Made by a program: the position numbers and the translations under genes. The notes beneath the pieces are model-generated. The model searched no databases, was not told where the DNA came from, and worked only from the letters and a program-made list of their open reading frames with translations. A stretch of DNA of 64,000 nt, taken from assembly GCA_947454955.1 (NCBI GenBank), contig CANGLW010000007.1, positions 28,915-92,914 of the forward strand, in the 5' to 3' direction. This document shows positions 7,150-40,816 of this stretch, one piece after another; the first letter of the stretch is position 1, and each line of letters opens with the position of its first letter. Origin of the DNA: Comamonadaceae bacterium (GTDB lineage: Bacteria > Pseudomonadota > Gammaproteobacteria > Burkholderiales > Burkholderiaceae_C).

Positions 7150-7155
7150 GAATGT

Positions 7156-13029: not shown

Positions 13030-13030
13030 C

Positions 13031-14038: not shown

Positions 14039-14189
14039 CCGATTTCTGCGCGAAGCGCTGTATGAGGGGACCGTTGTTGGCGTTGTTCTGCGTTCTATAC
14101 ATGCTTAGGCTTTGTTTGTGTTCGTGTCTGGTGGCGGCAGCACCAGGCAACTACCGTTCGCCTCATACAGCGCTGCGCGCAGAAATCGG
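14039..14189. repeat. long imperfect inverted repeat in cysH-cysD spacer
   Basis: 29-nt arms at 14039-14067 and 14161-14189 match 28/29 when one is reverse-complemented. Weaker complementarity continues inward to a CTGGTG/CACCAG apex at about 14128-14146. Confidence 0.8.
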
Positions 14190-14270
14190 CGCCCAGTACT
14201 TGCCTGGCGCTACTGGGAGCGCTTATGTTTTTCGTGCCGCTTAATGTCTTCATGTTTTGTTCGGTCGCGT

Positions 14271-14372
14271 CTTGTTCACTCAACTCAGCAGCGTGATGGC
14301 GTCATGCAGCGTGAACAAACAGCGACGTAGCGTGAGCAAACAGCCAAGCACCGTGAACAAAGAGCAACAAGC
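14271..14372. repeat. array of GTGAACAA-type motifs: 3 x 21-bp tandem repeats plus one inverted copy
   Basis: Three 21-bp units at 14310-14330, 14331-14351 and 14352-14372 read CGTGA[A/G]CAAA.... TTGTTCAC at 14272-14279 is the inverted partner. Confidence 0.8.
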
Positions 14373-14391
14373 AAAAGAAGAGGCATCAACA

Positions 14392-15162: not shown

Positions 15163-15524
15163 GCGGCCGCCTTGGCAAAGTGGGGTTGCGGGTCGGCTGC
15201 GCTGCCTTGGTAAAAGCCAGCAAAGCGGTCGAGCTGGCGTTGTGCCACGGCCAAGTCTTGGCCGGCTTTGAGCACCGCTGAATCAAAGCCGGTGCGCGAC
15301 ATTTGCAGCACCTGGTCCACCAGCACATCACCGGTGGCGCGAATCTCGCCGGTGAAGCCCAAGCGGCGCAGCATGAAGGCTTGGCTGTAGGCGCGGCCGT
15401 CGGTGAATTTGGGAAAATGCAGGTCAATGCGGCTGATGCCTTGCAGGCTCACGCTGCGCACGTCCACATCGTTAGCCAGGGCCAACACGCTTTGGCTTTC
15501 GGTGTTTTCAGTCAAGAGTTTCAT
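15159..15524 (-). CDS. DUF934-domain protein
   Basis: 121 aa with FPKFTDGRAYSQA...LR.LGF.GE.RA.GDVL, as I recall for DUF934. It occupies the conserved position between cysI and cysH. Confidence 0.8.
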   Translation of the reverse strand: MKLLTENTESQSVLALANDVDVRSVSLQGISRIDLHFPKFTDGRAYSQAFMLRRLGFTGEIRATGDVLVDQVLQMSRTGFDSAVLKAGQDLAVAQRQLDRFAGFYQGSAADPQPHFAKAAA

Positions 15525-15533
15525 GATGTGTCC

Positions 15534-17348
15534 TCAAGCTTCTTGAGCGTCTTTGGCAAAGCCAGGGGTTTTGGGCAGCACATGCAATTCGTCATGCGCT
15601 TGGGGCCAGCGTGCGGCGTTGGCGGCTACCTTGAACGCATCGAAGCCCACGCGACGCAGGGTGTCGATGAAGGTCTCGCGGCCTTGGCGCTCTTGGCGGA
15701 ACACCTCCAACACCGCTTCAACCACACCAGGCACTTCGCCTGCGCTGAACGACGGGCCCACCACTTTGCCCGCTACTGCCGCGCCACTCAGTTTGGAGCC
15801 ATCAGAGCCACCCAGCGAGACCTGGTACCACTCCTTGCCATCTTTGTCCACGCCCAGAATGCCGATGTGGCCGCTGTGGTGGTGGCCGCAAGAGTTGATG
15901 CAGCCGCTGATGTGCAGGTCAATCTCACCCAGGTCGTGCAGCTCGTCCATGTCCTGGTAGCGCTCGGTGATGGCCGCGGCAATCGGGATGGAACGCGCGT
16001 TGGCCAAAGCGCAAAAATCGCCGCCGGGGCAGGCAATCATGTCGGAGAGCAAACGGATGTTGCTGCGCGCCAAACCCGCGTGGCTGGCAGCCACCCACAG
16101 CGCCGGCAGGTCTTGCTCGCGCACCCAGGGCAGCAACAAGTTTTGGTCGTGCGTCACGCGCACTTCACCGGCTGAGAATTCATCGGCCAGGTCTGCTGCG
16201 GTGTCGAGCTGATCGGCATCGGCGTCACCCGGCGCTTGGCCCAGGCGTTTGAATGACAACGTGACCGCGCGCAATGCCGGGTTCTTGTGCGCAGCCACGT
16301 TTTGCTTGAGCCAACGCTCGTAGTCTTTCTGACGTTCAGTGGGCACTGCTACGGTTTTGGAAGCGCTTGTTGCAGATTGCGTGAGGGCTGGGGCCACAAA
16401 GCAGGCCGACACACGGTCCAGCTCAGACTGCGGGATGGTGTGAGTCGCGCCATTGCTCAGAATGGTTTGGTACTCGGCCTCCACCTCGTCCATGTAACGC
16501 TGGCCTTCGGCCTTCACCAAAATTTTGATGCGCGCTTTGTACAGGTTGTCACGACGGCCCCAGCGGTTGTAAACGCGCACCACCGCCTCGAGGTAATTCA
16601 TGATTTGGTGCCAGGGCAGGAACTCACGAATCACCGTGCCGGTGATGGGTGTGCGGCCCATGCCGCCACCCACCAGCACCTTGAAGCCCAACTCGCCCTG
16701 CGCGTTCTTGATGAGGTGCAGGCCCACGTCATGCCAAGCCACTGCCGCGCGGTCTTCACGCGCGCCGGTGATGGCGATCTTGAACTTGCGTGGCAAAAAC
16801 GCGAACTCGGGGTGCAGCGTGCTCCACTGGCGCAGAATTTCTGCAAAGGGGCGCGGGTCGGCAATTTCATCGGGGGCCACGCCCGCCAATTCGTCGCTGG
16901 TGATGTTGCGGATACAGTTGCCGCTGGTCTGAATGCCGTGCATGTTGACCGTGGCCAAGAGGTCCATCACATCGGCACTTTTGGCCAGCGGAATCCAGTT
17001 GAACTGCACGTTTTGGCGGGTTGTGAAGTGGCCGTAGCCCACCGGCAGGTGTGTGGTGCCCCAAGTGGCTTGGGTGCCGATGGCTTTGTCGAACACCTCT
17101 TTGCTGGGGTGGTCGTACTCGCGGGCGATGCGCGCCAGCACCCGCAGTTGTGCGCTGGACAACTCGCCATAAGGCACCGCCACGCGCAGCATGGGCGCGT
17201 ATCGCTGCACATACCAGCCGTTTTGCAGGCGCAGGGGGCGGAAGTCCTCGTCACTCAAGGTGCCGGCCAGGTTGCGTTCAAGCTGGTCGCGGTGCTGCGC
17301 GGCACGGGCGCGCACAAAGGCTTTGTCAAATTCGGTGTACTGGTACAT
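15534..17348 (-). CDS. cysI: sulfite reductase hemoprotein (nitrite/sulfite reductase family)
   Basis: Two NiR/SiR repeats and siroheme/4Fe-4S cysteines (ACPGGDFC...SGCINSCGHHH). The start is refined to MYQYTEFDK (ATG at 17346-17348). Confidence 0.9.
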   Translation of the reverse strand: MYQYTEFDKAFVRARAAQHRDQLERNLAGTLSDEDFRPLRLQNGWYVQRYAPMLRVAVPYGELSSAQLRVLARIAREYDHPSKEVFDKAIGTQATWGTTHLPVGYGHFTTRQNVQFNWIPLAKSADVMDLLATVNMHGIQTSGNCIRNITSDELAGVAPDEIADPRPFAEILRQWSTLHPEFAFLPRKFKIAITGAREDRAAVAWHDVGLHLIKNAQGELGFKVLVGGGMGRTPITGTVIREFLPWHQIMNYLEAVVRVYNRWGRRDNLYKARIKILVKAEGQRYMDEVEAEYQTILSNGATHTIPQSELDRVSACFVAPALTQSATSASKTVAVPTERQKDYERWLKQNVAAHKNPALRAVTLSFKRLGQAPGDADADQLDTAADLADEFSAGEVRVTHDQNLLLPWVREQDLPALWVAASHAGLARSNIRLLSDMIACPGGDFCALANARSIPIAAAITERYQDMDELHDLGEIDLHISGCINSCGHHHSGHIGILGVDKDGKEWYQVSLGGSDGSKLSGAAVAGKVVGPSFSAGEVPGVVEAVLEVFRQERQGRETFIDTLRRVGFDAFKVAANAARWPQAHDELHVLPKTPGFAKDAQEA

Positions 17349-17480
17349 AGGGTTACGCGGTTTTCTGGGCGTCAATGGCGGGCTCAATTGAGCTTGATGC
17401 AGGAAACGTTGTTGCAAACGTCCCTTTTTCTGCCATGGGCCATGACTCTAAGCTCTGAGACATATATTCCAAACTACAAA

Positions 17481-30996: not shown

Positions 30997-31953
30997 TTAA
31001 TTTTTGCCGTGAGCAGACAGCGCGCGGTTGATGGCCGCACGGTCGAGTTGAGGGTTGAGGAGTTCTGCGAACTCATACACAAAATTGCGCAGGTAAACGC
31101 CGCGTTTGAAGGCCACACGCGAGACGTTCACGCCAAACAGATGGCCCAAGGGACGCACCACCAGCTCGCCTGGCGGTGAGCCTGCTGGGGCTTCATGCGA
31201 GAGGTCACGGACCGACATCTCGGCCGCAATGCCCAAGCCCATACCCAAACGCACATAGGTTTTGATCACATCTGAATCGATGGCTTCTAGCGCAATGCGC
31301 GGGGTAAGTTTGCGTTTGTCAAAGGCTTGGTCGATGCGGGTACGGCCGGTGAAGGTGGGGTGGTAAGTGATGAGCGGCTCTGACGCGATGTCTTCCAGCG
31401 TGAGCTTGGCGCGCTTGGCCAGCGGGTGCTCCGCAGGCAGCACCAGCATGTGTTGCCATTCGTAGCAGGGCAGGGTCACGAGCTCGTCGTAGTTCGACAA
31501 ACTCTCGGTGGCCATGCCGATCTCGGCCACCTCTTCAATCAGCATGCGCGCGACTTGGTCGGGCGTGCCCTGGTGCATGCTCAGGTTCACCTTGGGGTAG
31601 GTGTGGCGCAGCTTGGCCACCGGCTCGGGCAACACATAACGCGCCTGGGTGTGGGTGGTGGCAATCGACAACGTGCCGCTGTCTTGCGCGCTGAATTGCT
31701 CGCCAATGCGCTTGAGGTTGCTGATCTCGCGCATGATGATGTCGATGCTTTTGAGCACGTGCTGACCAGGCTCGGTCACGCGTTTGAGGCGCTTGCCATG
31801 GCGGGCAAAAATGTCGATGCCCAGCTCTTCTTCCAGCTCAATGATGGCCTTGGACACCCCCGGCTGCGAGGTGTGCAAGGCCTTGGCCGCCTCGGTCAGG
31901 TTGAGGTTGTGCCGCGCAGCTTCTTGGGCGTAACGGAATTGGTGCAGGTTCAT
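30997..31953 (-). CDS. cysB: LysR-family regulator, CysB/Cbl type
   Basis: The N-terminal HTH (LNLTEAAKALHTSQPGVSKAI.ELE.ELG) and the ATTHTQARY.LP segment closely parallel E. coli CysB as I remember it. Confidence 0.8.
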   Translation of the reverse strand: MNLHQFRYAQEAARHNLNLTEAAKALHTSQPGVSKAIIELEEELGIDIFARHGKRLKRVTEPGQHVLKSIDIIMREISNLKRIGEQFSAQDSGTLSIATTHTQARYVLPEPVAKLRHTYPKVNLSMHQGTPDQVARMLIEEVAEIGMATESLSNYDELVTLPCYEWQHMLVLPAEHPLAKRAKLTLEDIASEPLITYHPTFTGRTRIDQAFDKRKLTPRIALEAIDSDVIKTYVRLGMGLGIAAEMSVRDLSHEAPAGSPPGELVVRPLGHLFGVNVSRVAFKRGVYLRNFVYEFAELLNPQLDRAAINRALSAHGKN

Positions 31954-32014
31954 ATCAAATTACCGCTAAAGAACCAGTTCATTATGCCTGATGACCAGTC
32001 TTTACAAGGTGGCT

Positions 32015-32626
32015 TCAAACTGGATGCCAGGGCTGTTCGCGGTAAAAGGCCTCCTGGGCCATGCGCAGCATGGGCAAGTCGCCCCGGGTGTCGCCGTAAG
32101 CCGTCAGGTGGGCGTTGCTCAAACCTTGGTCTTGCCGCCAAGCTTGTAAGCGCCGCACTTTCTCTGGTCCGTGGCAGTTGGCGCTGGCCATCTGACCGGT
32201 GTAGAGGTCACCACGACGTTCAAGCTCGGTGCACAACAAATGAACGCCCAGGTGTTGCGCCACGGCTTGTAAATAAATGTCGGGCGAGGCACTGACCATC
32301 ACACACACATCGCCTTGTGCTTGGTGTTCGCGCAGTCGGGCCATGCCCCAAGGTGCGAGTAGCTTAGGCAAGCTGGTGGCTACAAAATCATTCGACCACG
32401 TGTGCGCTGTGGTGACTGGCAACCCAGCAAAACTCAAACGCAGCAAACGTGCTTTGGCCACGTGGTTGGGCATTAGACGCAGCACATACAAGGCAAGCCA
32501 CGGTGAGCACATGAAGATCACCCACATGAGCTTGACCGCGCCCAGGTAGTGCCACAAAAACGGCAGCAAGGTGTCGCCGCGGGTCAGGGTGCCGTCAAAG
32601 TCAAACGCGGCCACACGCTGAATCAT
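32015..32626 (-). CDS. HAD-IB family hydrolase/phosphatase
   Basis: AAFDFDGTLT (DxDGT) motif, and YGDTRGDLPML near the C-terminus. The start ATG at 32624-32626 overlaps the GT-C stop (ATGA). Confidence 0.7.
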   Translation of the reverse strand: MIQRVAAFDFDGTLTRGDTLLPFLWHYLGAVKLMWVIFMCSPWLALYVLRLMPNHVAKARLLRLSFAGLPVTTAHTWSNDFVATSLPKLLAPWGMARLREHQAQGDVCVMVSASPDIYLQAVAQHLGVHLLCTELERRGDLYTGQMASANCHGPEKVRRLQAWRQDQGLSNAHLTAYGDTRGDLPMLRMAQEAFYREQPWHPV

Positions 32627-34152
32627 GGGCAACGCACCTGGCCGCAGTAGCGCACGCAAAACGGGCAACCGGTCATGGGCAGCCAGTTGGGTATTTTGTA
32701 ATAGCGCTTGAAAATCTCGCCCAGCACGCCGCTGCGGTAAGCCTCAAAGTTGAAGCCTTCGCCTTCAACCACATGGAAGACCACGCCGCTTTGCTCAATG
32801 GGCAAGGCACGCACGCGTTCGAAGTAGGGCGCAAAGTCCGCCATGTTGGGCGTGTCCGACAAAATCACCCGCACGGTTTTGCCCTGGTAGATGCTGAAGT
32901 CCACCAGCATGTCGTCCTGGCGCGCATGGAACTTACCCGGGCCAAACACCGGCATGTACGCGTGCCTTGAATAGCCGTAAATGGAAGCTGGGGTGTAAGC
33001 ATCGGACATCAACACCACGTCTTGCAGCGCTGTGCCGTTGAGCGTGGGCAATTTCTGGACCTTGTCCAACAGCTCGGTGGTTTTGTAACTGCGAATGATG
33101 TTGGTGTGCAGTTTGGTGCCAGCCCATTGGTCGGGCGTGGTGAACGACACCCCCACCACCGCCAAGGCGTGCAGTGCGGCGAACAGCCCCAAACCAACGG
33201 CGGCTGTTTTCAAACGCTGTGGCGGCAAGCCCCAGGCCAGCAAGGCAAAACCGAAGGGGTAAAACGACAGCACCCAATGCAGGCCCACCACTTTTTTGAG
33301 CGAGAGCAACGCAAAAAACGCCAGCGGCACCAGCACCAAACACGCCAAGATTCGCTGTTGACGTGCCGCGTCTTTCAGGGCTGCGCGCTCTTTGAACCAC
33401 AACCACAAGACCACCGGCGACATGAGGTAGGCCATCATGCCCAGGTACAAGAACGGTTTGTTCCATGCAAAGCCGGCATCGGCGTTGCGGTTGTACACAT
33501 TGAACATGATGTTGGGCCAGCCGTGCGACATGTTCCAGCCAAAATTGATCAGCGGCCCGGGCAGCGCGCACAGCACCATGAAAGCCAAAGCGGTCCAGCG
33601 TTCGCGCCGGTACAGGCAGAAGTAAACCAGGTAACACAGGCCCAGCACCACGCTGAAGTACTTGCTTAAAAACGCGCAACCCAAGGCCAAGCCACTGATG
33701 GCGTAAAGGCCCCAGGCACTTGGCTTTTGCTCGGCGCGCACCAAACAAGCTACCGAGACCATGCTCCAGAAAATCAGCGGCGTGTCGGTGGTGATCAGCG
33801 CGTTGAGCCAGTTGATGGGCGCAAGCCAAAACAACAAGACCGCCCAAGCGGCGCGCTCTTTGTTCAGGGGCGACCAGGCCCAGTACATCAAGCCGCCCAA
33901 AAGCAGGGGCAGGGCGATGATGGGCAAGCGAATACTCAGGGTGGTGTCAGACATCGCGCGCATGAGCGCGATGACCCAGCCCACCATGGGCGGGTGGTCG
34001 TAATAGCCCCAGTCAGGGACAACGCCCCACCAATAAAAAAACGCTTCGTCCCCGGTGATGGGAAACGCCCAGCCGATCCACAAGCGCAGCGCCAGGCTCA
34101 AGAGCGCGGTGAGCCACAAGGCGCGTTGCAGATAAGTGGGTAAAGCGGGCAT
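32623..34152 (-). CDS. GT-C fold glycosyltransferase (ArnT / PMT family 39-like)
   Basis: FPITGDEAFFYWWG...YYDHPPMVGW is the DE/periplasmic-loop signature of ArnT/PMT_2 enzymes. It has 10 or more TM segments, a ~130-aa soluble C-terminal domain and a Cys-rich tail (CPFCVRYCGQVRC). Confidence 0.8.
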   Translation of the reverse strand: MPALPTYLQRALWLTALLSLALRLWIGWAFPITGDEAFFYWWGVVPDWGYYDHPPMVGWVIALMRAMSDTTLSIRLPIIALPLLLGGLMYWAWSPLNKERAAWAVLLFWLAPINWLNALITTDTPLIFWSMVSVACLVRAEQKPSAWGLYAISGLALGCAFLSKYFSVVLGLCYLVYFCLYRRERWTALAFMVLCALPGPLINFGWNMSHGWPNIMFNVYNRNADAGFAWNKPFLYLGMMAYLMSPVVLWLWFKERAALKDAARQQRILACLVLVPLAFFALLSLKKVVGLHWVLSFYPFGFALLAWGLPPQRLKTAAVGLGLFAALHALAVVGVSFTTPDQWAGTKLHTNIIRSYKTTELLDKVQKLPTLNGTALQDVVLMSDAYTPASIYGYSRHAYMPVFGPGKFHARQDDMLVDFSIYQGKTVRVILSDTPNMADFAPYFERVRALPIEQSGVVFHVVEGEGFNFEAYRSGVLGEIFKRYYKIPNWLPMTGCPFCVRYCGQVRCP

Positions 34153-34176
34153 GGATGACGTGAAAGGGCGACAGGC

Positions 34177-35211
34177 CTACCAAGGCCGGCGCCACGCACT
34201 ATAAAGCAAGGTCAAGAGCCCCAAGGCCACGGCCAGCCACAAGGTGAGCAAGCGCACCACCAGGGTGATGACCACCGCTTGGGCCAAGCTCAATGTTTGC
34301 GCGCTGATCTGCGCCACCCACATCAGCAAACCCGTCATGATGGCCTCGGTGCCACCCAAACCCGCGGGCAACATGGACAGCGCACCACCCACCATGCTCA
34401 GCGCATACACACCGCTGGCCAAAAGCCAATGCAGCTCCAAGCCTTGTCGGGTGCAGATGAGCCAGACTGCCACGCCTTGAGCTAACCAGGCCAGCACCGT
34501 CAAGGCCAACCATTGCAGCGGCTGATGGCACAGGCAGCCCCAGGCTTGCAGCAAGGCTTGCTGCGCTTTTTGTAGCAAGGTGGGTTTGAGGGTGGGCTCT
34601 TCCAAGGCCCGGGGCGCCAGCACCACAGGCGGTTGAGTGTCTGTCGAATGGCGAGACTTCGAGTCACGGTCGGCCTCAGACGCTGATGAGCCGGGCAATG
34701 AGCGCCACGACTGGCTCACGCGCCAAGCCAAGACCGCGAGCATGCCCAAGCCCATCACCGACACCCACCAGTCATAACCCAGCGTGCCCAGCATCCACAG
34801 CACCGCAGGCACGCACAGCAGCAACAAGCCCAGCAAATCAGCCACGCGTTCAGCCCCAAAAATAGACACGCTGTGCGCCGCGCTTAAACGCGGTTTGAGC
34901 AACATGCCGCGCGCTGCCTCGCCCACATTGCCCGGGGTGGCGGTGAAGGCGTAGCCGCACAGGTAAATGCGCAGCGCAGTCAAGGCGGGCAGGGGGTGCC
35001 CCAGGTGCTGCATCCAACTGCGCCAACGCCAGCCGCGCAGGGCGTAGTTGCTCAGGCAGAGCAGTAAGACCACCGCACCGGTGTGGGAGGCCAGGGCGTT
35101 GGACAACTCGGCCAGCGGCACATCGCCACTGAGGGTGAGCGCCAGGGCATACAGGCTCAAGGCCACGCCCAGCACCAGCAAGAGGGTGATCACTGGGGGC
35201 TTGGTTTTCAC
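34177..35211 (-). CDS. flippase-like / lysyl-PG-synthase-TM (UPF0104) family membrane protein
   Basis: About 8 TM segments interrupted by a ~45-aa hydrophilic loop. Its general look matches the UPF0104 family that accompanies GT-C/GT2 lipid-sugar systems. This call is weaker than the neighbouring ones. Confidence 0.6.
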   Translation of the reverse strand: MKTKPPVITLLLVLGVALSLYALALTLSGDVPLAELSNALASHTGAVVLLLCLSNYALRGWRWRSWMQHLGHPLPALTALRIYLCGYAFTATPGNVGEAARGMLLKPRLSAAHSVSIFGAERVADLLGLLLLCVPAVLWMLGTLGYDWWVSVMGLGMLAVLAWRVSQSWRSLPGSSASEADRDSKSRHSTDTQPPVVLAPRALEEPTLKPTLLQKAQQALLQAWGCLCHQPLQWLALTVLAWLAQGVAVWLICTRQGLELHWLLASGVYALSMVGGALSMLPAGLGGTEAIMTGLLMWVAQISAQTLSLAQAVVITLVVRLLTLWLAVALGLLTLLYSAWRRPW

Positions 35212-35212
35212 G

Positions 35213-36058
35213 TCAGCTGCGCAGCCCGAAAAACAAGCCCAGGTACATCAGGGCCGACATGGCAATCCAGGGGTCACGCAGCAGGTCGCGCGACACATCT
35301 TCGCCGCGGCCGCGGTGCACCTGCAGCATGTAACGCATCATGGCAAAAATGACCACCGGCACGGTGTAGACCAGCCGCTCGCCGTGCTGCGCCAAGGTCT
35401 CGGTGCTGGTGGCGTACAAGCTGTAGGTGGTGATGGTGGCGGTCATGGTCACCGCCATCAAGGTGTCGAGCAAGGCGCTGGGGTAATGCTCCAGGACCGC
35501 GCGCTGCTGGGCCGAGTCGTGAAAGCTCTCGGCCTTGCGTTTGGAGAAACCTAAAAACAGAGCCACAAACAAACCGGTGAGCAGCATCCACCGCGACGGC
35601 GCAATGCCCACCGCGATGGTGCCGGCCAGCAAGCGCAACATGAAGCCGCTGGCGATGATGCTCACATCGACCACCGGCACATGTTTCAAGCCTAGCGAGT
35701 AAGCCAGGTTCATGGCCACATAAACAGCCAACAGCACCAGCAGCACGACATTGCCCCAAGCTAAGCCAAGACCTAACGCTCCTAAAACCAGAGCTAACAC
35801 ACCAGCTGTGGCGGGGCTCACAGCCCCACTGGCTAAGGGGCGGCGGCGCTTGGTGGGGTGGCGCGCATCGGCTTGGCGGTCGCGCCAATCGTTCAAGATG
35901 TACACCAGGCTGGAGATGCAGCAAAACGCGGCAAACACCGCCAGCACGCGTTGCAACAAAGGCCCGTTGGTCAGGTTCTGGCTGAACATCAGGCCCGCAA
36001 ACACAAAGCTGTTTTTCAGCCACTGGTGCGGCCGCATCAATTCGATTGCTTTAAGCAT
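35213..36058 (-). CDS. UbiA-family polyprenyl-phosphate phosphoribosyltransferase (DPPR-synthase-like)
   Basis: RPHQWLKN start, the Asp-rich NDWRDRQAD motif (NDxxDxxxD) and RRRPLASG. 281 aa with about 8 TM segments, like mycobacterial Rv3806c. Confidence 0.75.
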   Translation of the reverse strand: MLKAIELMRPHQWLKNSFVFAGLMFSQNLTNGPLLQRVLAVFAAFCCISSLVYILNDWRDRQADARHPTKRRRPLASGAVSPATAGVLALVLGALGLGLAWGNVVLLVLLAVYVAMNLAYSLGLKHVPVVDVSIIASGFMLRLLAGTIAVGIAPSRWMLLTGLFVALFLGFSKRKAESFHDSAQQRAVLEHYPSALLDTLMAVTMTATITTYSLYATSTETLAQHGERLVYTVPVVIFAMMRYMLQVHRGRGEDVSRDLLRDPWIAMSALMYLGLFFGLRS

Positions 36059-36725
36059 GGCGGTGCTTCGCCTCTTTGTAAAACAAGCTCAAACCTTGCC
36101 ACACCAACCAGGCACTGAGCAGGGTCAGCGGGTAAGCCCACAGCACATCGCTGAGCCAATGCGCCCCCACACCAATGCGCGCAAAACCTATGCCCAAACC
36201 CGCCACCAAACCTGCGCCCAACCACCAATAACGGCGGCGTGGGTAGAGCAGCATGAGGCCGGCCAAAGCCATGCCGCAAGCCGCGTGGCCGCTCACAAAA
36301 GCGCAGTTGTCTTCGCACTGGTTCACACGCGCCAGGGCCGGTGAGAATTCTCGTGTGCCACCGAACTGCTGCACATCAAACGGACGGGCGCGCAAGTGGT
36401 GGTCTTTGACCAAGTAAGTGGCATATCCTGGCCCCAAGCCGATGGACAAACCCACAAAGGCAAAGGCCAAAGCCGCATGGCGCCAGCGTGGCACCAGGCT
36501 GCTGACGATCCAGGCCAAGGCGCACAAAATCACCAAGCTTCGAAACACATCGGGCGTGTATTCATTGACCTGCACCACCCACCACCACTCGGTGGGTTTG
36601 ATGGGCGGGTTGGGCTGCAAAAAATAGCCCGATACCGCCAGGTCCATGGCCGGGAAGAGGGCGGTGGCGACAGCCAACACCAGGCTCACCAGCATCAGCG
36701 CAAAGAACAAAGTTTTGGTGCGCAA
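36051..36725 (-). CDS. PAP2-family lipid phosphatase
   Basis: All three PAP2 motifs are present: KDHHLRARP, VSGH and ARIGVGAHWLSD. It overlaps the UbiA-family gene by 8 nt. Confidence 0.8.
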   Translation of the reverse strand: MRTKTLFFALMLVSLVLAVATALFPAMDLAVSGYFLQPNPPIKPTEWWWVVQVNEYTPDVFRSLVILCALAWIVSSLVPRWRHAALAFAFVGLSIGLGPGYATYLVKDHHLRARPFDVQQFGGTREFSPALARVNQCEDNCAFVSGHAACGMALAGLMLLYPRRRYWWLGAGLVAGLGIGFARIGVGAHWLSDVLWAYPLTLLSAWLVWQGLSLFYKEAKHRHA

Positions 36726-36736
36726 GCCGGTGTCCT

Positions 36737-37102
36737 TTAAGAAGCCACCGCGATGCGCGCGAGCAAATCCACCACCGCGGGGTGTTCACCCACCGCGGCT
36801 TGCAGGCTGAATTGCACGTGCGGGTGCGCAGCCTTGAGCTCGTTCATCAGCACCGGCAAATCTTCGCGCGCGTGTTTGCCCACGCCCAGAAACATGGGCA
36901 CCACGGTGATGGCATTCACACCGCTTTGCACCATCTGCGCACACACGGTGGGCAAGTCGGGCTCGGTCAGCTCCAGGTACGCGCAGGCCACGGTGGCTGA
37001 GTCGTCTAGGCTGGCTGCGTGCTTGGCCACCGCTTCCATGGGCGCGCGCCACAGCGGGTCGCGTGAACCGTGGGCAAACAGCACCACACCGCGTTGCGTC
37101 AT
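36737..37102 (-). CDS. CbiX/SirB-type (sirohydrochlorin) chelatase, short form
   Basis: The start is refined to MTQRGVVLFAHGSRDP (ATG at 37100-37102), followed by ...VVPMFLGVGKH. 121 aa. Confidence 0.7.
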   Translation of the reverse strand: MTQRGVVLFAHGSRDPLWRAPMEAVAKHAASLDDSATVACAYLELTEPDLPTVCAQMVQSGVNAITVVPMFLGVGKHAREDLPVLMNELKAAHPHVQFSLQAAVGEHPAVVDLLARIAVAS

Positions 37103-37116
37103 CTTGTGTCCTTCAT

Positions 37117-38226
37117 CTAGCGCCTCAACACCAACCAGCCAAAAGCTGTGAGGGAGATCAGCGAATAAATCATGCCCGGCAGCGCGGCGGTGAGCCAAGG
37201 CTGCCAGTGTTGCAGCTCACCAATGTAGCCCATGACGTTGTTGAGAAAAAAGAAACTGATGCCCGCCATCACCCCGCCAAACACATAGCCCGAGATGCCG
37301 CTGCTGCGAAAGTGCAGGTAGGCAAAGGGCAGGGCCAGCACCACCATCACCAGGCAGCTCAAGGGGTAAAACACTTTTTTCCAAAACTCAATTTCGTAGC
37401 GCTCGGCCGATTGGTTATTGGCGTCCAAGTGGCGGATGTACTGGAACAAATCCAGTGTGGCCATGCGGTCGGGGCGCAGCACCGCCGCACTCACCATCTC
37501 CGCACTGATCTCGGTGGGCCAGCGCAGGCTAGGCACAGTTTGGCGCTCCAGTTTCTCTTGTGAGGGCTCAGCCCGGGCTTTGAATTCGGTGCGCTGGGCT
37601 TGCTCGAGCTGCCAGCCGGCATCCACAAACTTGGCCGTATCAGCCTTGGTCAGGCTCACCAAAAAGCCCTGGTTGTCGAACTCAAAAATACGCACACCTT
37701 GCAGCGAACCTTCGCTGGTCAACGAATTCACATTCACCGCAAATTGCCCAAAGGTTTGTTTTTCTTTGAGCCACGCCCCAGTTTGCCCCACGCTGATGTT
37801 GCCCTGGTAGCGCGCTTTGAGCAGCTGCGCTGTGCGGTCGGCCCAAGGCGCCAGGTAGTCGCCCACCACAAAGGTGGCCACCACAAACACCACACCGGTC
37901 ACCAGCAGGGTGCGCAGCGCGCGCCACGGCCCCAAGCCACTGGTGCGCAGGATGGTGAACTCCGAGCTTTGTGCCAGGCGCGTCATCACAAAAATGGTGC
38001 CTATCAACACGGTGATGGGCAACAGTTCGTACAAATGGCTGGGGATGAGCAGGGCCACATAGGTCACCGCTTGCGGAATTTTGTAGCCCTCACCCATGCC
38101 CGGGCGGCCGATGGCGGGCAGTTGGTCCACCAGGTCAAAAAACGAGAACAGCGCCAAGAAAGCCAGTGTCACAAACAAGACGGCCGAGAACACCTCGCCA
38201 TAAATCAAGCGGCGTATGGTCTTCAT
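37117..38226 (-). CDS. lptG: LPS export ABC permease LptG
   Basis: The start is refined to MKTIRRLIYGEV (ATG at 38224-38226, ATGA overlap with the lptF stop). YjgP/YjgQ topology with a large periplasmic loop. Confidence 0.9.
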   Translation of the reverse strand: MKTIRRLIYGEVFSAVLFVTLAFLALFSFFDLVDQLPAIGRPGMGEGYKIPQAVTYVALLIPSHLYELLPITVLIGTIFVMTRLAQSSEFTILRTSGLGPWRALRTLLVTGVVFVVATFVVGDYLAPWADRTAQLLKARYQGNISVGQTGAWLKEKQTFGQFAVNVNSLTSEGSLQGVRIFEFDNQGFLVSLTKADTAKFVDAGWQLEQAQRTEFKARAEPSQEKLERQTVPSLRWPTEISAEMVSAAVLRPDRMATLDLFQYIRHLDANNQSAERYEIEFWKKVFYPLSCLVMVVLALPFAYLHFRSSGISGYVFGGVMAGISFFFLNNVMGYIGELQHWQPWLTAALPGMIYSLISLTAFGWLVLRR

Positions 38227-39326
38227 GCGGCCACCTTCTTTGTGGTGGCCCGCTTCAGCCAAGACACACCCAGGTTGTGGTGCCGCTTGTAAAGCCACGC
38301 CACGCCCAGTAACAACACGCCACCATGCAAGCCCACCATGAAGCCCACAAAGCTCACCTGCTGGGTGGCCACCCAGGTTTGGCCCAGGCTGAGCAAGTTC
38401 AAATACACCTGAAACGCCAGGAGCGAGAACACCAGATTCCACGAGCGGCCCACCCGTGGGTTCACCCGCGTGGCGGCCAGCGCGATGATGAGCAGGTTCA
38501 AGGCCGCAAGTGCAAAGCCCGAGCGAAACGCGATTTCGCCCAAGTTGGTGGGCGTGGGGTCTTGCAACAGCTTCAAAGTGGGCACGGTGTTGAGCGGCAC
38601 CTCGGGCGCAGCGCCCAGCACGCCCTGGTCGGCTAGCACGCGGTAGTTGTCAAAGGCCATCACCCGCAGGGCGGTCTTGCCAATTTGGCTCTCCAGCCGC
38701 TGGCCGTTTTCCAGCACCAAAAACCGGTCTTCGCCCTCGGTCACCACACGGCCGCTGCGTGCGGTGGTGATGGTTTCTTTGCCCGCCTCGTTGGTGGCGA
38801 TGAACACATTGCTGGCGGTTTGCTCGGCCATCAGGCTTTTCTCAATGAAAAACACCTTGCTGCCGCCCCCAGACTCCTGAAACTGGCCCGGCTGCACCCT
38901 CTCCAGGTCACCCCGGTTTTCGTAGTGCGACTTCATGTCCTCAATTTGCTGGTACGACCAAGGCAGCACAAACAGCGCCAAACCACCCACGGCCAGCAAC
39001 ACCGGCCAGGCAAAGCGCAGCACCGGGCGCAGCACAAGCCCCAGGCCCACGCCGCTGTTGAACCAAATCACCATTTCAGAGTCGCGGTACATGCGGGTCA
39101 GCGTCGAGACCGTGGCCACAAACAGGCCCATGGTCATGATGTTGGGCAGAAACGCCAGCACGTTGTAGCCCATCACCAGCATCACATCCGAGGGGTTGAA
39201 GCTGCCGCGCGAGGCTTGGCCCAGCGTGCGGATCAGCGTCATGGTCATCACCACCGTGACCAGCACGATCAGCGTAGCCCCAAAACTGCGGGCCAGCTCC
39301 TTGCGGATGGAGGAATGGAATAACAT
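38223..39326 (-). CDS. lptF: LPS export ABC permease LptF
   Basis: MLFHSSIRKELARSF start (ATG at 39324-39326; the track start at 39347 is TTG). YjgP/YjgQ family. Divergent from pepA, as in many proteobacteria. Confidence 0.9.
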   Translation of the reverse strand: MLFHSSIRKELARSFGATLIVLVTVVMTMTLIRTLGQASRGSFNPSDVMLVMGYNVLAFLPNIMTMGLFVATVSTLTRMYRDSEMVIWFNSGVGLGLVLRPVLRFAWPVLLAVGGLALFVLPWSYQQIEDMKSHYENRGDLERVQPGQFQESGGGSKVFFIEKSLMAEQTASNVFIATNEAGKETITTARSGRVVTEGEDRFLVLENGQRLESQIGKTALRVMAFDNYRVLADQGVLGAAPEVPLNTVPTLKLLQDPTPTNLGEIAFRSGFALAALNLLIIALAATRVNPRVGRSWNLVFSLLAFQVYLNLLSLGQTWVATQQVSFVGFMVGLHGGVLLLGVAWLYKRHHNLGVSWLKRATTKKVAA

Positions 39327-39349
39327 TGATGGCAACGAAAAGCCCAATT

Positions 39350-40816
39350 ATGAACTTTCAACTCAAGACCCTCAGCCTCAGCCAAGCCGCCACCCAAAAA
39401 ACCGACGCACTACTGGTGCTCGTTCCCGAAGGTTACAAGCCGGTGCAAGCCCTCAAGGCCCCGCCCGAGGACCTCAACCAAGTCATCGCCCAAGCCCTGA
39501 GCCGGGGCGACTTGCTCACCAAACCCGGCAAGTGGCTGGCCTTGCACCGCCCCGCAGGCGTGGCCGCCACCCGTGTGTTGTTGGCCGGTGTGGGCGAGGG
39601 CAAGCCTGCCCAAGTGCGCAGCGCCATGAACGCGGCCTGGGGCGCTTTGCGTGCCAGCGCGCCAGGCTTGGAAACCCTCACAGTGGTTTTCGCAGGTTCG
39701 GCTAACGCGGCTGCATTGCGTGCCAGTATTTTGGCCTTGAGCGACGCAGGCTATGTCTACAGTGCTACCAAAAAAATAGCAGAGCCCATCACCCTGGACA
39801 AAGTGACGCTGGGTGTGACGGATGCCAAACCCTTGCAAACCGCGTTCAAACACATCTTGGCCACGGCCGAGGGTGTGGCCATGGCCAAAGAATGGGCCAA
39901 CCGCCCGGCTAACCACGCCACGCCCACGTTGCTGGCCAACGCGGCCAAGGGTTTGGCCAGCACCGCCGCGAAATTGAGCTGCCAGGTGCTTGGCCCCAAA
40001 GAGGTGGACAAGCTGGGCATGGGTTCCTTCATGGCGGTGGCCCAGGGCTCGCGCGAGCCGCTGCGCTTCATCGTGCTGAACTACCAGGGCGCGGCCAAAA
40101 CCCTGGCGCCCACCGTGCTGGTGGGCAAGGGCATCACCTTTGACACGGGGGGTATTTCCATCAAGCCCGCGGCTGAGATGGACGAGATGAAGTTCGACAT
40201 GTCGGGTGCGGCGAGCGTGCTGGGCGTGTTCAAGGCCCTGCGCGAGTTGCAGCCCAAGATCAACGTGGTGGGTTTGATTCCCGCAGCTGAAAACATGCCC
40301 GGTGGCAACGCCATCAAACCCGGTGACGTGGTCAAGAGTATGAGCGGCCAAACGATTGAGATTTTGAACACCGACGCCGAAGGCCGCCTGGTGCTGTGCG
40401 ACGCGCTGACCTACGCCGAGCGCTTCAAACCCAAAGCGGTGATTGACATCGCGACCCTGACCGGTGCTTGCGTGATTTCCCTGGGCGCGGTTCGTAGCGG
40501 CTTGTTTGCCAGCAAAGACGATTTGGCTCACGCCTTGCTCAAAGCCGGCGAGGCCGCGCAAGACCTGGCTTGGCGCTTGCCGCTGGACGACGACTACGCC
40601 GAAGGCCTCAAATCCAACTTCGCCGATGTGGCGAATGTGGGCGGGCGTGCTGGCGGGGCCATCACCGCGGCCAAGTTTTTGCAGCGCTTTGCCACCAAAT
40701 TCGACTGGGCGCACCTGGACATTGCCGGCACCGCCTGGAAGGGCGGCGCGGCCAAAGGCGCCACCGGCCGCCCGGTGGGTTTGCTGCTGAGTTATTTGCT
40801 GGGCGAGACGGTTTAA
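39350..40816 (+). CDS. pepA: leucyl aminopeptidase
   Basis: M17 motifs VGKGITFDTGGISIKP and NTDAEGRLVLCDAL. The start ATG is at 39350 (alternative at 39329). Confidence 0.9.
   Translation: MNFQLKTLSLSQAATQKTDALLVLVPEGYKPVQALKAPPEDLNQVIAQALSRGDLLTKPGKWLALHRPAGVAATRVLLAGVGEGKPAQVRSAMNAAWGALRASAPGLETLTVVFAGSANAAALRASILALSDAGYVYSATKKIAEPITLDKVTLGVTDAKPLQTAFKHILATAEGVAMAKEWANRPANHATPTLLANAAKGLASTAAKLSCQVLGPKEVDKLGMGSFMAVAQGSREPLRFIVLNYQGAAKTLAPTVLVGKGITFDTGGISIKPAAEMDEMKFDMSGAASVLGVFKALRELQPKINVVGLIPAAENMPGGNAIKPGDVVKSMSGQTIEILNTDAEGRLVLCDALTYAERFKPKAVIDIATLTGACVISLGAVRSGLFASKDDLAHALLKAGEAAQDLAWRLPLDDDYAEGLKSNFADVANVGGRAGGAITAAKFLQRFATKFDWAHLDIAGTAWKGGAAKGATGRPVGLLLSYLLGETV

What the first reader, a model, noticed from the sequence alone, without database searches (positions are those of the whole stretch)
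32015..36725. PAP2 / UbiA phosphoribosyltransferase / flippase-like / GT-C / HAD cluster: candidate polyprenyl-phospho-ribose glycosylation system lacking DprE1/E2
Five same-strand genes are packed head to tail: an 8-nt overlap at 36051-36058, a 1-nt gap at 35212, a 24-nt gap, and an ATGA overlap at 32623-32626. They lie directly downstream of lptF-lptG-cbiX.

The UbiA-family protein carries NDWRDRQAD (NDxxDxxxD) and RRRPLASG, like decaprenyl-phosphate phosphoribosyltransferase (mycobacterial Rv3806c). It is paired with a PAP2 phosphatase, as Rv3806c is with Rv3807c.

In the characterised pathway the ribose lipid is epimerised by DprE1/DprE2 to the arabinofuranose donor. No such oxidoreductases are in or next to this cluster. 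Instead there is a UPF0104 flippase-like protein, an ArnT/PMT-like GT-C enzyme with a soluble C-terminal domain, and a HAD-IB phosphatase.

My inference is that a lipid-linked ribofuranose, not arabinose, is built from PRPP, dephosphorylated, flipped and transferred to a periplasmic acceptor. The lptFG linkage makes lipid A or LPS core attractive as that acceptor. Alternatively, the PAP2 protein could be an LpxE/LpxF-like lipid A phosphatase that prepares the acceptor.

I do not know of a characterised Gram-negative system with this gene composition.
Basis: partly seen in the sequence, partly recalled or inferred. Interest (0 to 1): 0.72.

Follow-up and report, generated by a model that had tools for sequence, protein, structure and literature searches.

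The report
Lipid-linked ribose envelope glycosylation module
This is a compact gene set, conserved across freshwater and soil Comamonadaceae, that most likely builds a lipid-carried ribose sugar from PRPP and attaches it to an unknown target outside the inner membrane. It is an uncharacterised variant of a pathway proven in Citrobacter in 2024, not a new kind of system.

Summary
Five minus-strand genes lie at the stated coordinates with the stated junctions: PAP2, a UbiA-type polyprenyl-phosphate phosphoribosyltransferase, a PplT/MprF-type flippase-like protein, a PMT_2 GT-C glycosyltransferase and a HAD-IB hydrolase.

In 80 Comamonadaceae species loci the conserved unit is UbiA, flippase, GT-C and HAD.
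- GT-C plus HAD: 59 of 59 loci with enough flank.
- Flippase: 55 of 59.
- PAP2: 16 of 60.
- lptG-cbiX linkage: 24 of 60.
- No DprE1 homologue in the 64-kb window or within 10 kb in any locus.

The concept is already characterised. Kelly et al. 2024 (PMC11127046) showed that a HAD-UbiA enzyme, a flippase and a GT-C add ribofuranose in the periplasm of Citrobacter without epimerases.

This cluster differs in four ways:
- the flippase family is PplT, not MATE or SMR;
- the GT-C is closest in fold to ArnT and has no detectable similarity to the one likely GT136-type neighbour compared;
- the HAD is a separate protein;
- the module stands alone, outside any glycan locus.

The HAD, not PAP2, is the conserved phosphatase. 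PAP2 is an accessory, periplasm-facing enzyme that resembles LpxF rather than Rv3807c. The acceptor is unknown, and lipid A is possible but weakly supported.

Verdict: new variant of a known kind, of moderate interest.

The parts
35213..36058 (-). UbiA-family polyprenyl-phosphate 5-phosphoribosyltransferase (PPPRS/DPPRS type), the donor-synthesis step
   Evidence: PF01040. NCBIfam NF008977 scores 242.8 (cut-off 234) and NF008978 scores 223.3 (cut-off 207). Full-length alignment to Mtb DPPRS 8J8J, E 3e-38, with NDxxDxxxD, HPTKRxRP and KRxAE conserved. These motifs are kept in 78-80 of 80 orthologues.
32015..32626 (-). HAD-IB hydrolase, the proposed cytoplasmic, membrane-associated polyprenyl-P-ribose-5-phosphate phosphatase (PRP equivalent)
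   Evidence: PF12710 and TIGR01490, 129.8 bits (cut-off 98.3). The DxDGT motif lies at residues 9-13, so there is no room for a signal peptide. The cap region 20-52 is hydrophobic. The gene is present with the GT-C in 59 of 59 loci, and DxDGT is kept in 61 of 61. Related proteins occur as HAD-GT-C, HAD-PplT and HAD-UbiA fusions. The nearest named HAD family of the PRP-type domain in a HAD-UbiA fusion is also TIGR01490.
34177..35211 (-). PplT / LPG_synthase_TM (UPF0104, MprF-flippase-like) membrane protein, the proposed flippase for polyprenyl-P-ribofuranose
   Evidence: PF03706 full length (2-302 of 302), E 3e-35; TIGR00374 flippase-like domain. Present in 55 of 59 loci. In Salinibacter ruber a HAD-PplT fusion sits beside DprE1-like, DprE2-like and UbiA genes.
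32623..34152 (-). GT-C glycosyltransferase (PMT_2; closest in fold to ArnT) with a roughly 170-residue C-terminal periplasmic alpha/beta domain and an invariant four-cysteine tail, the proposed periplasmic ribofuranosyltransferase
   Evidence: PF13231, E 2e-17. No NCBIfam hit and no PDB sequence hit. AF2 model has pLDDT 79.8 and pTM 0.83. Best fold matches are ArnT 5EZM/5F15 (E 2e-6, TM 0.60), then Pmt4, AglB, ALG9 and AftB. The GDE motif at 34-36 and the C..C...C....C tail are invariant.
36051..36725 (-). PAP2 lipid-phosphate phosphatase, an accessory component with an inferred periplasm-facing active site that resembles LpxF; its substrate is unresolved
   Evidence: PF01569. Best NCBIfam match is LpxF, 84 bits over the full length, far below the 400-bit cut-off. 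KX6RP, SGH and RX5HX3D motifs are intact here and in 20 of 20 orthologues. The positive-inside rule places the motifs in the periplasm. Present in 16 of 60 loci, including one (L051) that is not linked to lptFG.
36737..39347 (-). Context only: lptF (39347-38223), lptG (38229-37117) and cbiX (37102-36737). They are probably co-transcribed with the module in this genome but are not part of it.
   Evidence: PF03739 twice and PF01903. Spacings are -7, 14 and 11 nt. The linkage is present in 24 of 60 loci.

Best explanation
This is a self-contained periplasmic pentofuranosylation module. Each step below is inferred by homology and synteny unless marked otherwise.

1. On the cytoplasmic face, the UbiA enzyme transfers ribose-5-phosphate from PRPP to a polyprenyl phosphate, presumably undecaprenyl-P. 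The product is polyprenyl-P-beta-D-ribofuranose-5-P.
2. The stand-alone HAD-IB enzyme is cytoplasmic and has a hydrophobic cap that probably docks it on the membrane. It removes the 5-phosphate to give polyprenyl-P-Ribf.
3. The PplT/MprF-type protein flips this donor to the periplasmic leaflet.
4. The GT-C enzyme, closest in fold to ArnT, transfers the ribofuranose to an envelope acceptor that is still unknown, and the polyprenyl-P is released.

No epimerase is linked to the module in any species examined, so the transferred sugar is most likely ribofuranose itself. The PAP2 protein is an optional add-on and not the pathway's 5-phosphatase.
For: - UbiA is DPPRS-type. It exceeds two equivalog cut-offs, and its catalytic motifs align with the solved Mtb enzyme.
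- Experimental precedent exists. C. youngae ORF15 (HAD-PRP fused to UbiA) makes polyprenyl-P-Ribf from PRPP, and a GT-C transfers the sugar in the periplasm. Epimerases are present only when the sugar is Xylf or Araf.
- Synteny is strong. GT-C plus HAD follow UbiA in 59 of 59 species loci and the flippase in 55 of 59, in at least three unrelated genomic contexts.
- Fusions tie the HAD to each partner: HAD-GT-C (P0242; L095), HAD-PplT (P0272; Salinibacter) and HAD-UbiA (NF006088; Jannaschia).
- In Salinibacter ruber the HAD-PplT fusion sits in one cluster with DprE1-like and DprE2-like genes and a DPPRS-type UbiA of 36% identity. This links both the HAD subfamily and the PplT domain to lipid-linked pentofuranose synthesis in another phylum.
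- The PRP-type HAD of a HAD-UbiA fusion has TIGR01490/PF12710 as its nearest HAD family, the same as the window HAD.
- The GT-C has a confident GT-C fold, with ArnT as the top structural match, and an invariant GDE motif after TM1.
- A validated DprE1 query found no hit in the window or in 88 related loci. No FAD_binding_4 domain was found among the 28 window proteins scanned (8, 20).
- Catalytic motifs of all five proteins are conserved across orthologues.
Against: - Nothing here is biochemical. No product, acceptor or phenotype is known for any member of this variant.
- The HAD is only weakly similar to a bona fide PRP-type domain: 24% identity over 96 residues, pairwise E 2e-4.
- The GT-C showed no detectable sequence similarity to the one probable GT136-type GT-C compared, the Jannaschia neighbour. 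Its donor specificity is therefore inferred from context only.
- Flippase activity of PplT-only proteins toward polyprenyl-P-sugars has never been shown. Four species lack the flippase gene altogether.
- Epimerases could be encoded elsewhere in the genome, which I could not search.
- 22 of the 50 large ORFs in the window were not scanned against Pfam.
Confidence: 0.72

Rival explanations
1. This is a lipid A-directed version of the same chemistry. The LpxF-like PAP2 removes a lipid A phosphate in the periplasm. The GT-C then caps lipid A (its phosphate or the freed hydroxyl) or inner-core Kdo with ribofuranose before LptFG extracts the LPS.
For: - ArnT, a lipid A glycosyltransferase, is the best structural match of the GT-C.
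- The best family match of the PAP2 is lipid A 4'-phosphatase LpxF over its full length, E 1e-23, and its active site is inferred to face the periplasm.
- The module directly follows lptFG in this genome and in 23 other species.
- PAP2-UbiA adjacency also occurs away from lptFG, in L051.
- A Legionella UbiA plus GT-C pair lies beside the mla, murA and kdsD-like genes.
- Natural lipid A variants whose phosphates carry D-arabinofuranose are recorded (PMC5713287). From my own recollection the organism is Rhodocyclus tenuis, a betaproteobacterium.
Against: - PAP2 is absent from 44 of 60 loci, yet the GT-C is about equally conserved with or without it.
- lptFG linkage is absent from 36 of 60 loci.
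- The LpxF score of 84 bits is far below the 400-bit cut-off.
- The GT-C hits no NCBIfam model, including any ArnT model the library holds.
- Fold similarity among GT-C enzymes does not report acceptor type: Pmt4, AglB and ALG9 score next.
- The isolated C-terminal domain has no informative fold match.
Confidence: 0.22
2. The transferred sugar is arabinofuranose or xylofuranose rather than ribofuranose. Polyprenyl-P-Ribf would be epimerised by DprE1/DprE2-like or ORF13-like enzymes encoded elsewhere in the genome.
For: - Relatives with the same building blocks do carry adjacent DprE1/DprE2 genes: Chondrinema L093 and Salinibacter L107.
- The rest of this genome could not be searched.
- D-Araf on lipid A is documented.
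Against: - No DprE1 hit in the 64-kb window or within 10 kb in 88 related loci across three genomic contexts.
- In every characterised or predicted system surveyed by Kelly et al., the epimerase genes sit inside the modification locus.
- The module behaves as a mobile, self-contained unit.
Confidence: 0.15
3. The PAP2 protein is the functional analogue of mycobacterial Rv3807c. It would dephosphorylate polyprenyl-P-ribose-5-P, possibly after flipping, and the HAD would have another role.
For: - PAP2 overlaps UbiA by 8 nt, a layout that resembles the adjacent PAP2-DPPRS genes (start and stop coincide) in Tsukamurella and Rhodococcus.
- A 'divergent PAP2' follows the DPPRS gene in Marivivens.
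Against: - No pairwise similarity to an Rv3807c-type PAP2 beyond the catalytic motif, and different best-match subfamilies.
- The active site is inferred to be periplasmic, whereas PRPP chemistry is cytoplasmic.
- PAP2 is absent from 44 of 60 loci, whereas the HAD is in 59 of 59.
- The HAD is the enzyme fused to UbiA, PplT or GT-C in other lineages.
Confidence: 0.12
4. The UbiA protein is an aromatic or quinone/haem prenyltransferase, and the cluster has nothing to do with glycosylation.
For: Some pipelines label homologues '4-hydroxybenzoate polyprenyltransferase'.
Against: - UbiA, haem O synthase, chlorophyll synthase and MqnP models score 45 bits or less, against 243 bits for DPPRS.
- The only PDB sequence match is DPPRS.
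- The constant partners are a GT-C and a flippase-like protein.
Confidence: 0.02

Closest known systems
Three-component periplasmic pentofuranose addition system of Citrobacter youngae O1/O2 (ORF15 PRP-PPPRS, ORF14 flippase, ORF12 GT136 GT-C; Kelly et al. 2024, PMC11127046)
   Same: - The logic is the same: a UbiA-type synthase uses PRPP, a HAD-family phosphatase removes the 5-phosphate, a dedicated flippase moves the donor, and a GT-C with an extra C-terminal periplasmic domain transfers the sugar.
- No epimerase is present when the sugar is ribofuranose.
- The host is Gram-negative.
   Different: - The HAD is a separate gene rather than an N-terminal domain.
- The flippase is a PplT/LPG_synthase_TM protein. 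Kelly et al. reported only MATE or SMR transporters.
- The GT-C belongs to Pfam PMT_2 and is closest in fold to ArnT. It shows no detectable similarity to the one likely GT136-type neighbour compared.
- The module is not embedded in an O-antigen or polysaccharide locus.
- An optional LpxF-like PAP2 is present.
- The acceptor is unknown.
Mycobacterial decaprenyl-P-arabinose pathway (Rv3806c DPPRS, Rv3807c PAP2, DprE1/DprE2, Rv3789, Emb/Aft GT-Cs)
   Same: - The UbiA enzyme is homologous, E 3e-38 to 8J8J.
- A PAP2 gene lies immediately upstream of UbiA.
- GT-C enzymes consume the lipid-linked pentofuranose.
   Different: - No DprE1/E2 genes are linked.
- The PAP2 belongs to another subfamily and is optional.
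- The conserved phosphatase is a HAD.
- The flippase family differs.
- The GT-C is not Emb- or Aft-like: AftB and EmbB are only weak fold hits.
ArnT / Ara4N lipid A modification (ArnC, ArnD, ArnE/F, ArnT)
   Same: - ArnT is the best structural match of the GT-C (TM 0.60).
- The strategy is the same: make an Und-P-pentose, flip it and transfer it in the periplasm.
   Different: - The donor is made from PRPP by a UbiA enzyme, not from a UDP-sugar by a GT2 enzyme.
- No ArnT-family NCBIfam hit was found.
- The flippase is not an ArnE/F-type SMR.
- The acceptor has not been shown to be lipid A.
Pseudomonas aeruginosa PA7/Pa5196 pilin D-arabinofuranosylation (PPPRS, DprE1/E2 homologues, TfpW GT-C)
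   Same: - A Gram-negative PPPRS homologue feeds a GT-C.
   Different: - That system has DprE1/E2 and a pilin-linked GT-C encoded in the pilin locus.
- No pilin genes or epimerases are present here.
MprF / GpgF-type PplT flippase domains (pfam03706)
   Same: - The flippase-like protein is a full-length PplT domain.
- HAD-PplT fusions were noted in the PplT survey (bioRxiv 10.1101/2022.03.11.483950).
   Different: - Known or proposed PplT substrates are modified phospholipids (Lys-PG, GlcN-PG), not polyprenyl-P-sugars.
- Here the genomic partners point to a polyprenyl-P-pentofuranose substrate.

Membership tests
DPPRS/PPPRS (UbiA-type polyprenyl-phosphate 5-phosphoribosyltransferase) | Sequence membership above curated family thresholds, and closer to DPPRS than to aromatic prenyltransferases | tested here: met
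   NF008977 scores 242.8 (cut-off 234) and NF008978 scores 223.3 (cut-off 207). Quinone, haem and chlorophyll models score 45 bits or less. The only PDB hits are DPPRS 8J8J and 8J8K.
DPPRS/PPPRS (UbiA-type polyprenyl-phosphate 5-phosphoribosyltransferase) | Catalytic loop-II NDxxDxxxD motif and loop-IV R/E residues shown to matter in Mtb DPPRS and ORF15 | tested here: met
   NDWRDRQAD and KRKAE align with NDVRDVEAD and KRYAE of 8J8J. They are conserved in 79 of 80 and 80 of 80 orthologues. Mutational importance comes from PMC11127046.
DPPRS/PPPRS (UbiA-type polyprenyl-phosphate 5-phosphoribosyltransferase) | PRPP-dependent formation of polyprenyl-P-ribose-5-P | not testable with these tools
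   Needs a membrane assay with PRPP plus farnesyl-P or Und-P.
Three-component pentofuranose addition system (Kelly et al. 2024) | PPPRS plus a PRP (HAD) phosphatase activity in the locus | tested here: met
   UbiA and a HAD-IB gene co-occur in 59 of 59 loci. The HAD subfamily matches the nearest family of a PRP-type domain. Phosphatase specificity is inferred, not shown.
Three-component pentofuranose addition system (Kelly et al. 2024) | Dedicated transporter of the MATE or SMR family | tested here: not met
   The transporter candidate is PF03706 (PplT). Kelly et al. list only MATE or SMR. The role is filled by a non-homologous protein.
Three-component pentofuranose addition system (Kelly et al. 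2024) | GT-C-fold transferase encoded next to the synthase (GT136 in the prototype) | tested here: inconclusive
   The GT-C fold is confirmed. There is no detectable similarity to a probable GT136-type neighbour in Jannaschia. The ORF12 sequence itself was not available for comparison.
Three-component pentofuranose addition system (Kelly et al. 2024) | Location within or beside a glycan (OPS/CPS) biosynthesis locus whose product is the acceptor | tested here: not met
   Neighbours are lptFG-cbiX and cysB here, a molybdopterin oxidoreductase and peptidase M20 in Polaromonas, and rpoD/MFS in L051.
Mycobacterial-type DPA pathway | DprE1 (FAD_binding_4/ALO) and DprE2 (SDR) epimerase pair | tested here: not met
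   A validated DprE1 query gives no tblastn hit in the window or in 88 loci. DprE2 gives only weak, generic SDR hits. The rest of the genome was not searchable.
Mycobacterial-type DPA pathway | Rv3807c-type PAP2 phosphatase | tested here: not met
   No significant similarity to the Tsukamurella Rv3807c-position PAP2. Best families differ: LpxF versus SepP/Und-PP phosphatases.
LpxF/LpxE lipid A phosphatases | Score above the curated LpxF equivalog cut-off | tested here: not met
   84 bits against a cut-off of 400, although LpxF is the best and a full-length match.
LpxF/LpxE lipid A phosphatases | Intact PAP2 catalytic triad motifs facing the periplasm | tested here: met
   KX6RP, SGH and RX5HX3D are present. 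The positive-inside rule places them in the periplasm. The topology is an inference, not a measurement.
ArnT (GT83) lipid A aminoarabinosyltransferase | Sequence membership in ArnT family models | tested here: not met
   No NCBIfam hit at E <= 0.01 and no PDB sequence hit at E <= 1. Only the Pfam PMT_2 match and fold-level similarity remain.
PplT / MprF flippase domain (PF03706) | Full-length match to the domain model | tested here: met
   122.4 bits, residues 13-331 on profile positions 2-302 of 302.

The most novel reading that the evidence does not exclude
Comamonadaceae decorate lipid A or the inner core with ribofuranose. An Und-P-Ribf donor made from PRPP would be flipped by an MprF-type (PplT) flippase and transferred by a GT-C enzyme closest in fold to ArnT. 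In some lineages an LpxF-like phosphatase would prepare the site. That would be a new lipid A/core modification and the first assigned polyprenyl-P-sugar substrate for a PplT flippase.
Probability: 0.2. Interest if true: 0.7.

Novelty: new variant of a known kind. Interest (0 to 1): 0.45.

Why it matters
Periplasmic pentofuranose addition was established only in 2024, and only for O-antigen side chains with MATE or SMR flippases and GT136 enzymes. This module suggests the same PRPP-to-lipid-ribose chemistry has been combined with a different flippase family and a different GT-C family. It forms a portable four-gene unit that is near-universal in Polaromonas, Curvibacter and Hylemonella-type bacteria, which are common in freshwater, ice and soil.

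If confirmed, it would do three things:
- assign the first non-phospholipid substrate to the widespread PplT/UPF0104 flippase domain;
- define a new ribofuranosyltransferase GT-C family;
- reveal an unknown envelope glycoconjugate, possibly on LPS, in an ecologically important family.

Culturable carriers exist, so it is directly testable.

Tried and rejected
- **C-terminal domain as a clue to the acceptor.** I modelled the GT-C C-terminal domain alone (pLDDT 76) and searched the PDB. Nothing was significant (best E 0.08, TM <= 0.31), so it gives no clue.
- **Direct sequence matches for the GT-C.** None in the PDB and none in NCBIfam. There was also no similarity to the Legionella GT39-type or Jannaschia GT136-like neighbours of UbiA homologues.
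- **A DprE1 reference from Tsukamurella.** The 'FAD-binding oxidoreductase' next to its DPPRS gene turned out to be D-2-hydroxyglutarate-dehydrogenase-like, not DprE1. I replaced it with the Chondrinema protein, validated at E 3e-83 against DprE1 structures.
- **A possible hidden epimerase in Polaromonas.** A 665-aa NAD_binding_4/SDR protein recurs 4-9 kb from the module. I rejected it: it is never adjacent, it lies on variable sides, it has a fatty-acyl-CoA-reductase-like domain set beside WS/DGAT and phasin genes, and the window has no counterpart beyond a generic SDR hit.
- **Metagenome scan with the HAD-GT-C fusion.** Only one locus (L095) carried the full module. The other 11 were stand-alone GT-Cs.
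- **Literature searches.** I found nothing on ribose or pentofuranose on Comamonadaceae LPS, and no later work on PplT-type pentofuranose systems.
- **Promoter and terminator scan.** It gave no usable operon boundary.

Full report
**1. Observation**

The five genes exist as described. All are on the minus strand.

| Gene | Coordinates | Length |
|---|---|---|
| PAP2 | 36725-36051 | 224 aa |
| UbiA | 36058-35213 | 281 aa |
| UPF0104 / LPG_synthase_TM | 35211-34177 | 344 aa |
| GT-C | 34152-32623 | 509 aa |
| HAD | 32626-32015 | 203 aa |

- The junctions are an 8-nt overlap, a 1-nt gap, a 24-nt gap and an ATGA overlap.
- lptF, lptG and cbiX precede the cluster with spacings of -7, 14 and 11 nt. 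Eight genes are therefore packed with gaps of 24 nt or less.
- The scan found no promoter-like site in 31800-39600, and no terminator-like match lies in an intergenic gap.
- Pfam and NCBIfam confirm every domain call.
- Identical loci occur in several public MAGs. The closest species representative is a 'Hylemonella sp.' MAG of the Comamonadaceae, at 88% UbiA identity.

**2. What the parts are**

*UbiA.*
- It exceeds the curated cut-offs of two NCBIfam 'decaprenyl-phosphate phosphoribosyltransferase' models (242.8 against 234; 223.3 against 207).
- Every quinone, haem, chlorophyll and menaquinone prenyltransferase model scores 45 bits or less.
- Its only sequence matches in the PDB are M. tuberculosis DPPRS 8J8J and 8J8K. 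The alignment to 8J8J (E 3e-38) is full length and keeps the NDxxDxxxD, HPTKRxRP and KRxAE motifs.

*Flippase-like protein.* It is a full-length PplT/MprF-flippase domain, PF03706 positions 2-302 of 302.

*GT-C.*
- It matches Pfam PMT_2 only. It has no NCBIfam hit and no PDB sequence hit.
- An AlphaFold model built from 28 homologues has pLDDT 79.8 and pTM 0.83.
- That model is most similar to ArnT of Cupriavidus metallidurans (E 2e-6, TM 0.60). Pmt4, AglB, ALG9 and AftB follow.
- A GDE motif after the first TM helix and a C-terminal C-x2-C-x3-C-x4-C tail are invariant.

*HAD.*
- It is a TIGR01490-type HAD-IB protein.
- Its catalytic DxDGT motif lies at residues 9-13, which leaves no room for a signal peptide. 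The enzyme is therefore cytoplasmic.
- Its cap region, residues 20-52, is hydrophobic and conserved in orthologues.

*PAP2.*
- All three catalytic motifs are intact.
- The short loops rich in Arg and Lys (PRWRH, PRRRYW) and both termini lie on one side of the membrane. The catalytic motifs lie on the other side, so the active site is inferred to face the periplasm.

**3. Comparative genomics**

One genome scan returned 80 species-level loci with UbiA identities of 67-88%. They come from Hylemonella, Curvibacter, Polaromonas and Rhodoferax. I ran tblastn with the window proteins against these loci.

| Feature | Loci with enough flank | Present |
|---|---|---|
| GT-C and HAD downstream of UbiA | 59 | 59 |
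| Flippase downstream of UbiA | 59 | 55 |
| lptG-cbiX immediately upstream | 60 | 24 (15 with PAP2, 9 without) |
| None of lptG, cbiX, PAP2 upstream | 60 | 35 |
| PAP2-UbiA in an rpoD/MFS context (L051) | 60 | 1 |

- The four loci without a flippase have the UbiA and GT-C genes overlapping, as read directly in L071.
- The Polaromonas locus examined in detail (L087) has a bare four-gene unit. It lies between a molybdopterin oxidoreductase and a peptidase M20.
- L051 is described.

Three conclusions follow.
- The functional unit is UbiA, flippase, GT-C and HAD.
- PAP2 is an optional component that travels with the module, not with lptFG.
- The lptFG adjacency is lineage-specific.

Catalytic motifs of all five proteins are conserved in orthologues.

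**4. Fusions and cross-phylum links**

- A library-wide HMMER search with the HAD found two kinds of fusion. One is a HAD-GT-C(PMT_2) protein, P0242, at 54% identity. The other is a HAD-PplT protein, P0272.
- NCBIfam NF006088 is itself a HAD-UbiA fusion family. The window UbiA matches its C-terminal half and the window HAD matches its N-terminal half.
- Metagenome locus L095 carries UbiA, flippase and GT-C followed by a HAD fused to a second GT-C.
- In Salinibacter ruber the HAD-PplT fusion lies directly after DprE1-like (FAD_binding_4/ALO) and DprE2-like (SDR) genes. A DPPRS-type UbiA of 36% identity lies 1.6 kb away.
- This evidence from another phylum ties both this HAD subfamily and the PplT domain to lipid-linked pentofuranose synthesis.
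- In Jannaschia, a HAD-UbiA fusion sits in an O-antigen-like locus. Its PRP-type HAD domain has TIGR01490/PF12710 as its nearest HAD family, the same as the window HAD.
- Direct pairwise similarity between those two HADs is weak, E 2e-4.

**5. Epimerases**

- The Chondrinema protein next to a DPPRS gene is a genuine DprE1 homologue, E 3e-83 to DprE1 structures.
- Used as a query, it finds nothing in the 64-kb window or in 88 Comamonadaceae loci with 10-kb flanks.
- The neighbouring DprE2-like SDR finds only weak, generic SDR matches.
- I scanned 20 further large ORFs of the window against Pfam, in addition to the 8. They show sulfate-assimilation, transport and other housekeeping functions and no FAD_binding_4 domain.
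- The rest of the genome could not be searched.

**6. Comparison with what is known**

Kelly et al. 2024 (PMC11127046) showed the following by experiment in Citrobacter youngae O1.
- ORF15 is an N-terminal HAD 'PRP' domain fused to a UbiA 'PPPRS'. It makes polyprenyl-P-Ribf from PRPP.
- ORF12 is a GT-C that founded family GT136 and has a C-terminal carbohydrate-binding domain. It transfers the ribofuranose to the O-antigen in the periplasm.
- ORF14, a MATE-family protein, is the predicted flippase; Kelly et al. did not test its activity.
- Epimerases (ORF13, or DprE1/E2 homologues) are present only where the final sugar is Xylf or Araf.

That is an already characterised mechanism in a Gram-negative bacterium.

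The window cluster differs from that prototype in five ways.
- The flippase family is PplT. Kelly et al. found only MATE or SMR.
- The GT-C family is PMT_2, closest in fold to ArnT. It has no detectable similarity to the one likely GT136-type protein compared.
- The HAD is a separate protein.
- The module is not embedded in any glycan locus.
- An accessory PAP2 is present.

In the held literature I found no later paper describing this variant.

**7. The PAP2 question**

- The analogy between Rv3806c/Rv3807c and this UbiA/PAP2 pair does not hold as homology.
- The window PAP2 has no significant similarity to the PAP2 at the Rv3807c position in Tsukamurella.
- That protein's best matches are undecaprenyl-diphosphatases. 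The window PAP2's best match is the lipid A 4'-phosphatase LpxF model. The match covers the full length (E 1e-23, 84 bits) but is far below the 400-bit equivalog cut-off.
- With a periplasm-facing site and presence in only 16 of 60 loci, PAP2 is unlikely to be the pathway's obligatory 5-phosphatase.
- I could not determine its substrate. Candidates are lipid A, flipped lipid-P-ribose-5-P and Und-PP.

**8. The acceptor**

Hints for lipid A or core:
- the best structural match of the GT-C is ArnT;
- the PAP2 resembles LpxF;
- the module adjoins lptFG in this lineage;
- a Legionella UbiA plus GT-C pair lies beside the mla, murA and kdsD-like genes;
- lipid A variants whose phosphates carry D-arabinofuranose are documented (PMC5713287).

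Points against:
- two of these hints are missing from most carriers;
- GT-C fold similarity does not report acceptor type;
- the isolated C-terminal domain gave no informative fold match.

I put lipid A/core at about 0.2 and regard the acceptor as open.

**9. Verdict**

The mechanism is right in outline. It is wrong about PAP2, it overlooks the HAD, and it is wrong that no characterised Gram-negative counterpart exists.
- The cluster is a conserved, uncharacterised variant of the known periplasmic pentofuranosylation systems.
- Three things are new: the likely use of a PplT flippase for a polyprenyl-P-sugar, a new ribofuranosyltransferase-type GT-C family, and an unidentified envelope acceptor in a widespread bacterial family.
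- Interest is moderate, 0.45.

Noticed in passing
window 52922-54277 (-): A PucC-family protein (PF03209, E 2e-150). PucC is normally tied to light-harvesting complex assembly, so the organism may be an aerobic anoxygenic phototroph.
   Followed up: no
window 11704-17417 (-), 30997-31953 (-), 36737-37102 (-): Sulfate-assimilation genes surround the module: a CysN-like GTPase, PAPS reductase and sulfite reductase, plus a CysB-family regulator directly downstream of the HAD. A small CbiX-type chelatase lies between lptG and PAP2. The cbiX gene probably serves sirohaem synthesis rather than the glycosylation module.
   Followed up: partly
L095:8013-10082: In one metagenome contig the module's HAD is fused to a second, divergent PMT_2 GT-C, so the module has two GT-Cs. 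This hints at a more elaborate, two-step or two-acceptor version.
   Followed up: partly
L107:4797-11139 (Salinibacter ruber JANTZL010000013.1): A DprE1-like gene, a DprE2-like gene, a HAD-PplT fusion and a DPPRS-type UbiA form a candidate arabinofuranose-lipid pathway in the Rhodothermota. Between the fusion and UbiA lies 1.6 kb with only fragmented ORFs of a membrane protein, possibly a decayed GT-C. Toxin-antitoxin genes flank the cluster.
   Followed up: partly
L089:6974-9342 (Legionella adelaidensis NZ_LR134420.1): A two-gene UbiA(DPPRS-type) plus GT39-annotated GT-C pair lies directly after mlaFEDCB-ibaG-murA-nif3, with no adjacent flippase or HAD. The record is labelled 'plasmid 11' but carries core chromosomal genes.
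   Followed up: no
L087:18784-20781 and equivalents in about 30 Polaromonas loci: A highly conserved 665-aa protein with NAD_binding_4/3beta-HSD and SDR domains recurs 4-9 kb from the module, on either side. In L087 it lies near WS/DGAT, phasin and PHA-granule genes. It is probably a fatty acyl-CoA reductase for wax esters and unrelated to the module.
   Followed up: partly
L058, L070: Two MAG contigs titled 'Synechococcus sp. UW140' and 'Asaia bogorensis' carry the Comamonadaceae-type module (UbiA 70-71% identical, full four-gene order). This suggests binning or taxonomy errors in those assemblies.
   Followed up: no
window 32623-32670 (GT-C residues 494-509): An invariant tail, TGCPFCxRYCGQVRC, with four cysteines ends the periplasmic domain of the GT-C. 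It could form two disulfides or a metal site. AlphaFold confidence is low there, and the domain has no recognisable fold match.
   Followed up: partly
window 6919-7953 (+): A 344-aa ORF with coding-like GC3 (0.66) has no Pfam match at E <= 1e-5.
   Followed up: no
L071, L074, L082, L019: Four species carry the module without any flippase gene. In L071 the UbiA stop overlaps the GT-C start. Flipping is therefore either dispensable or supplied in trans.
   Followed up: partly
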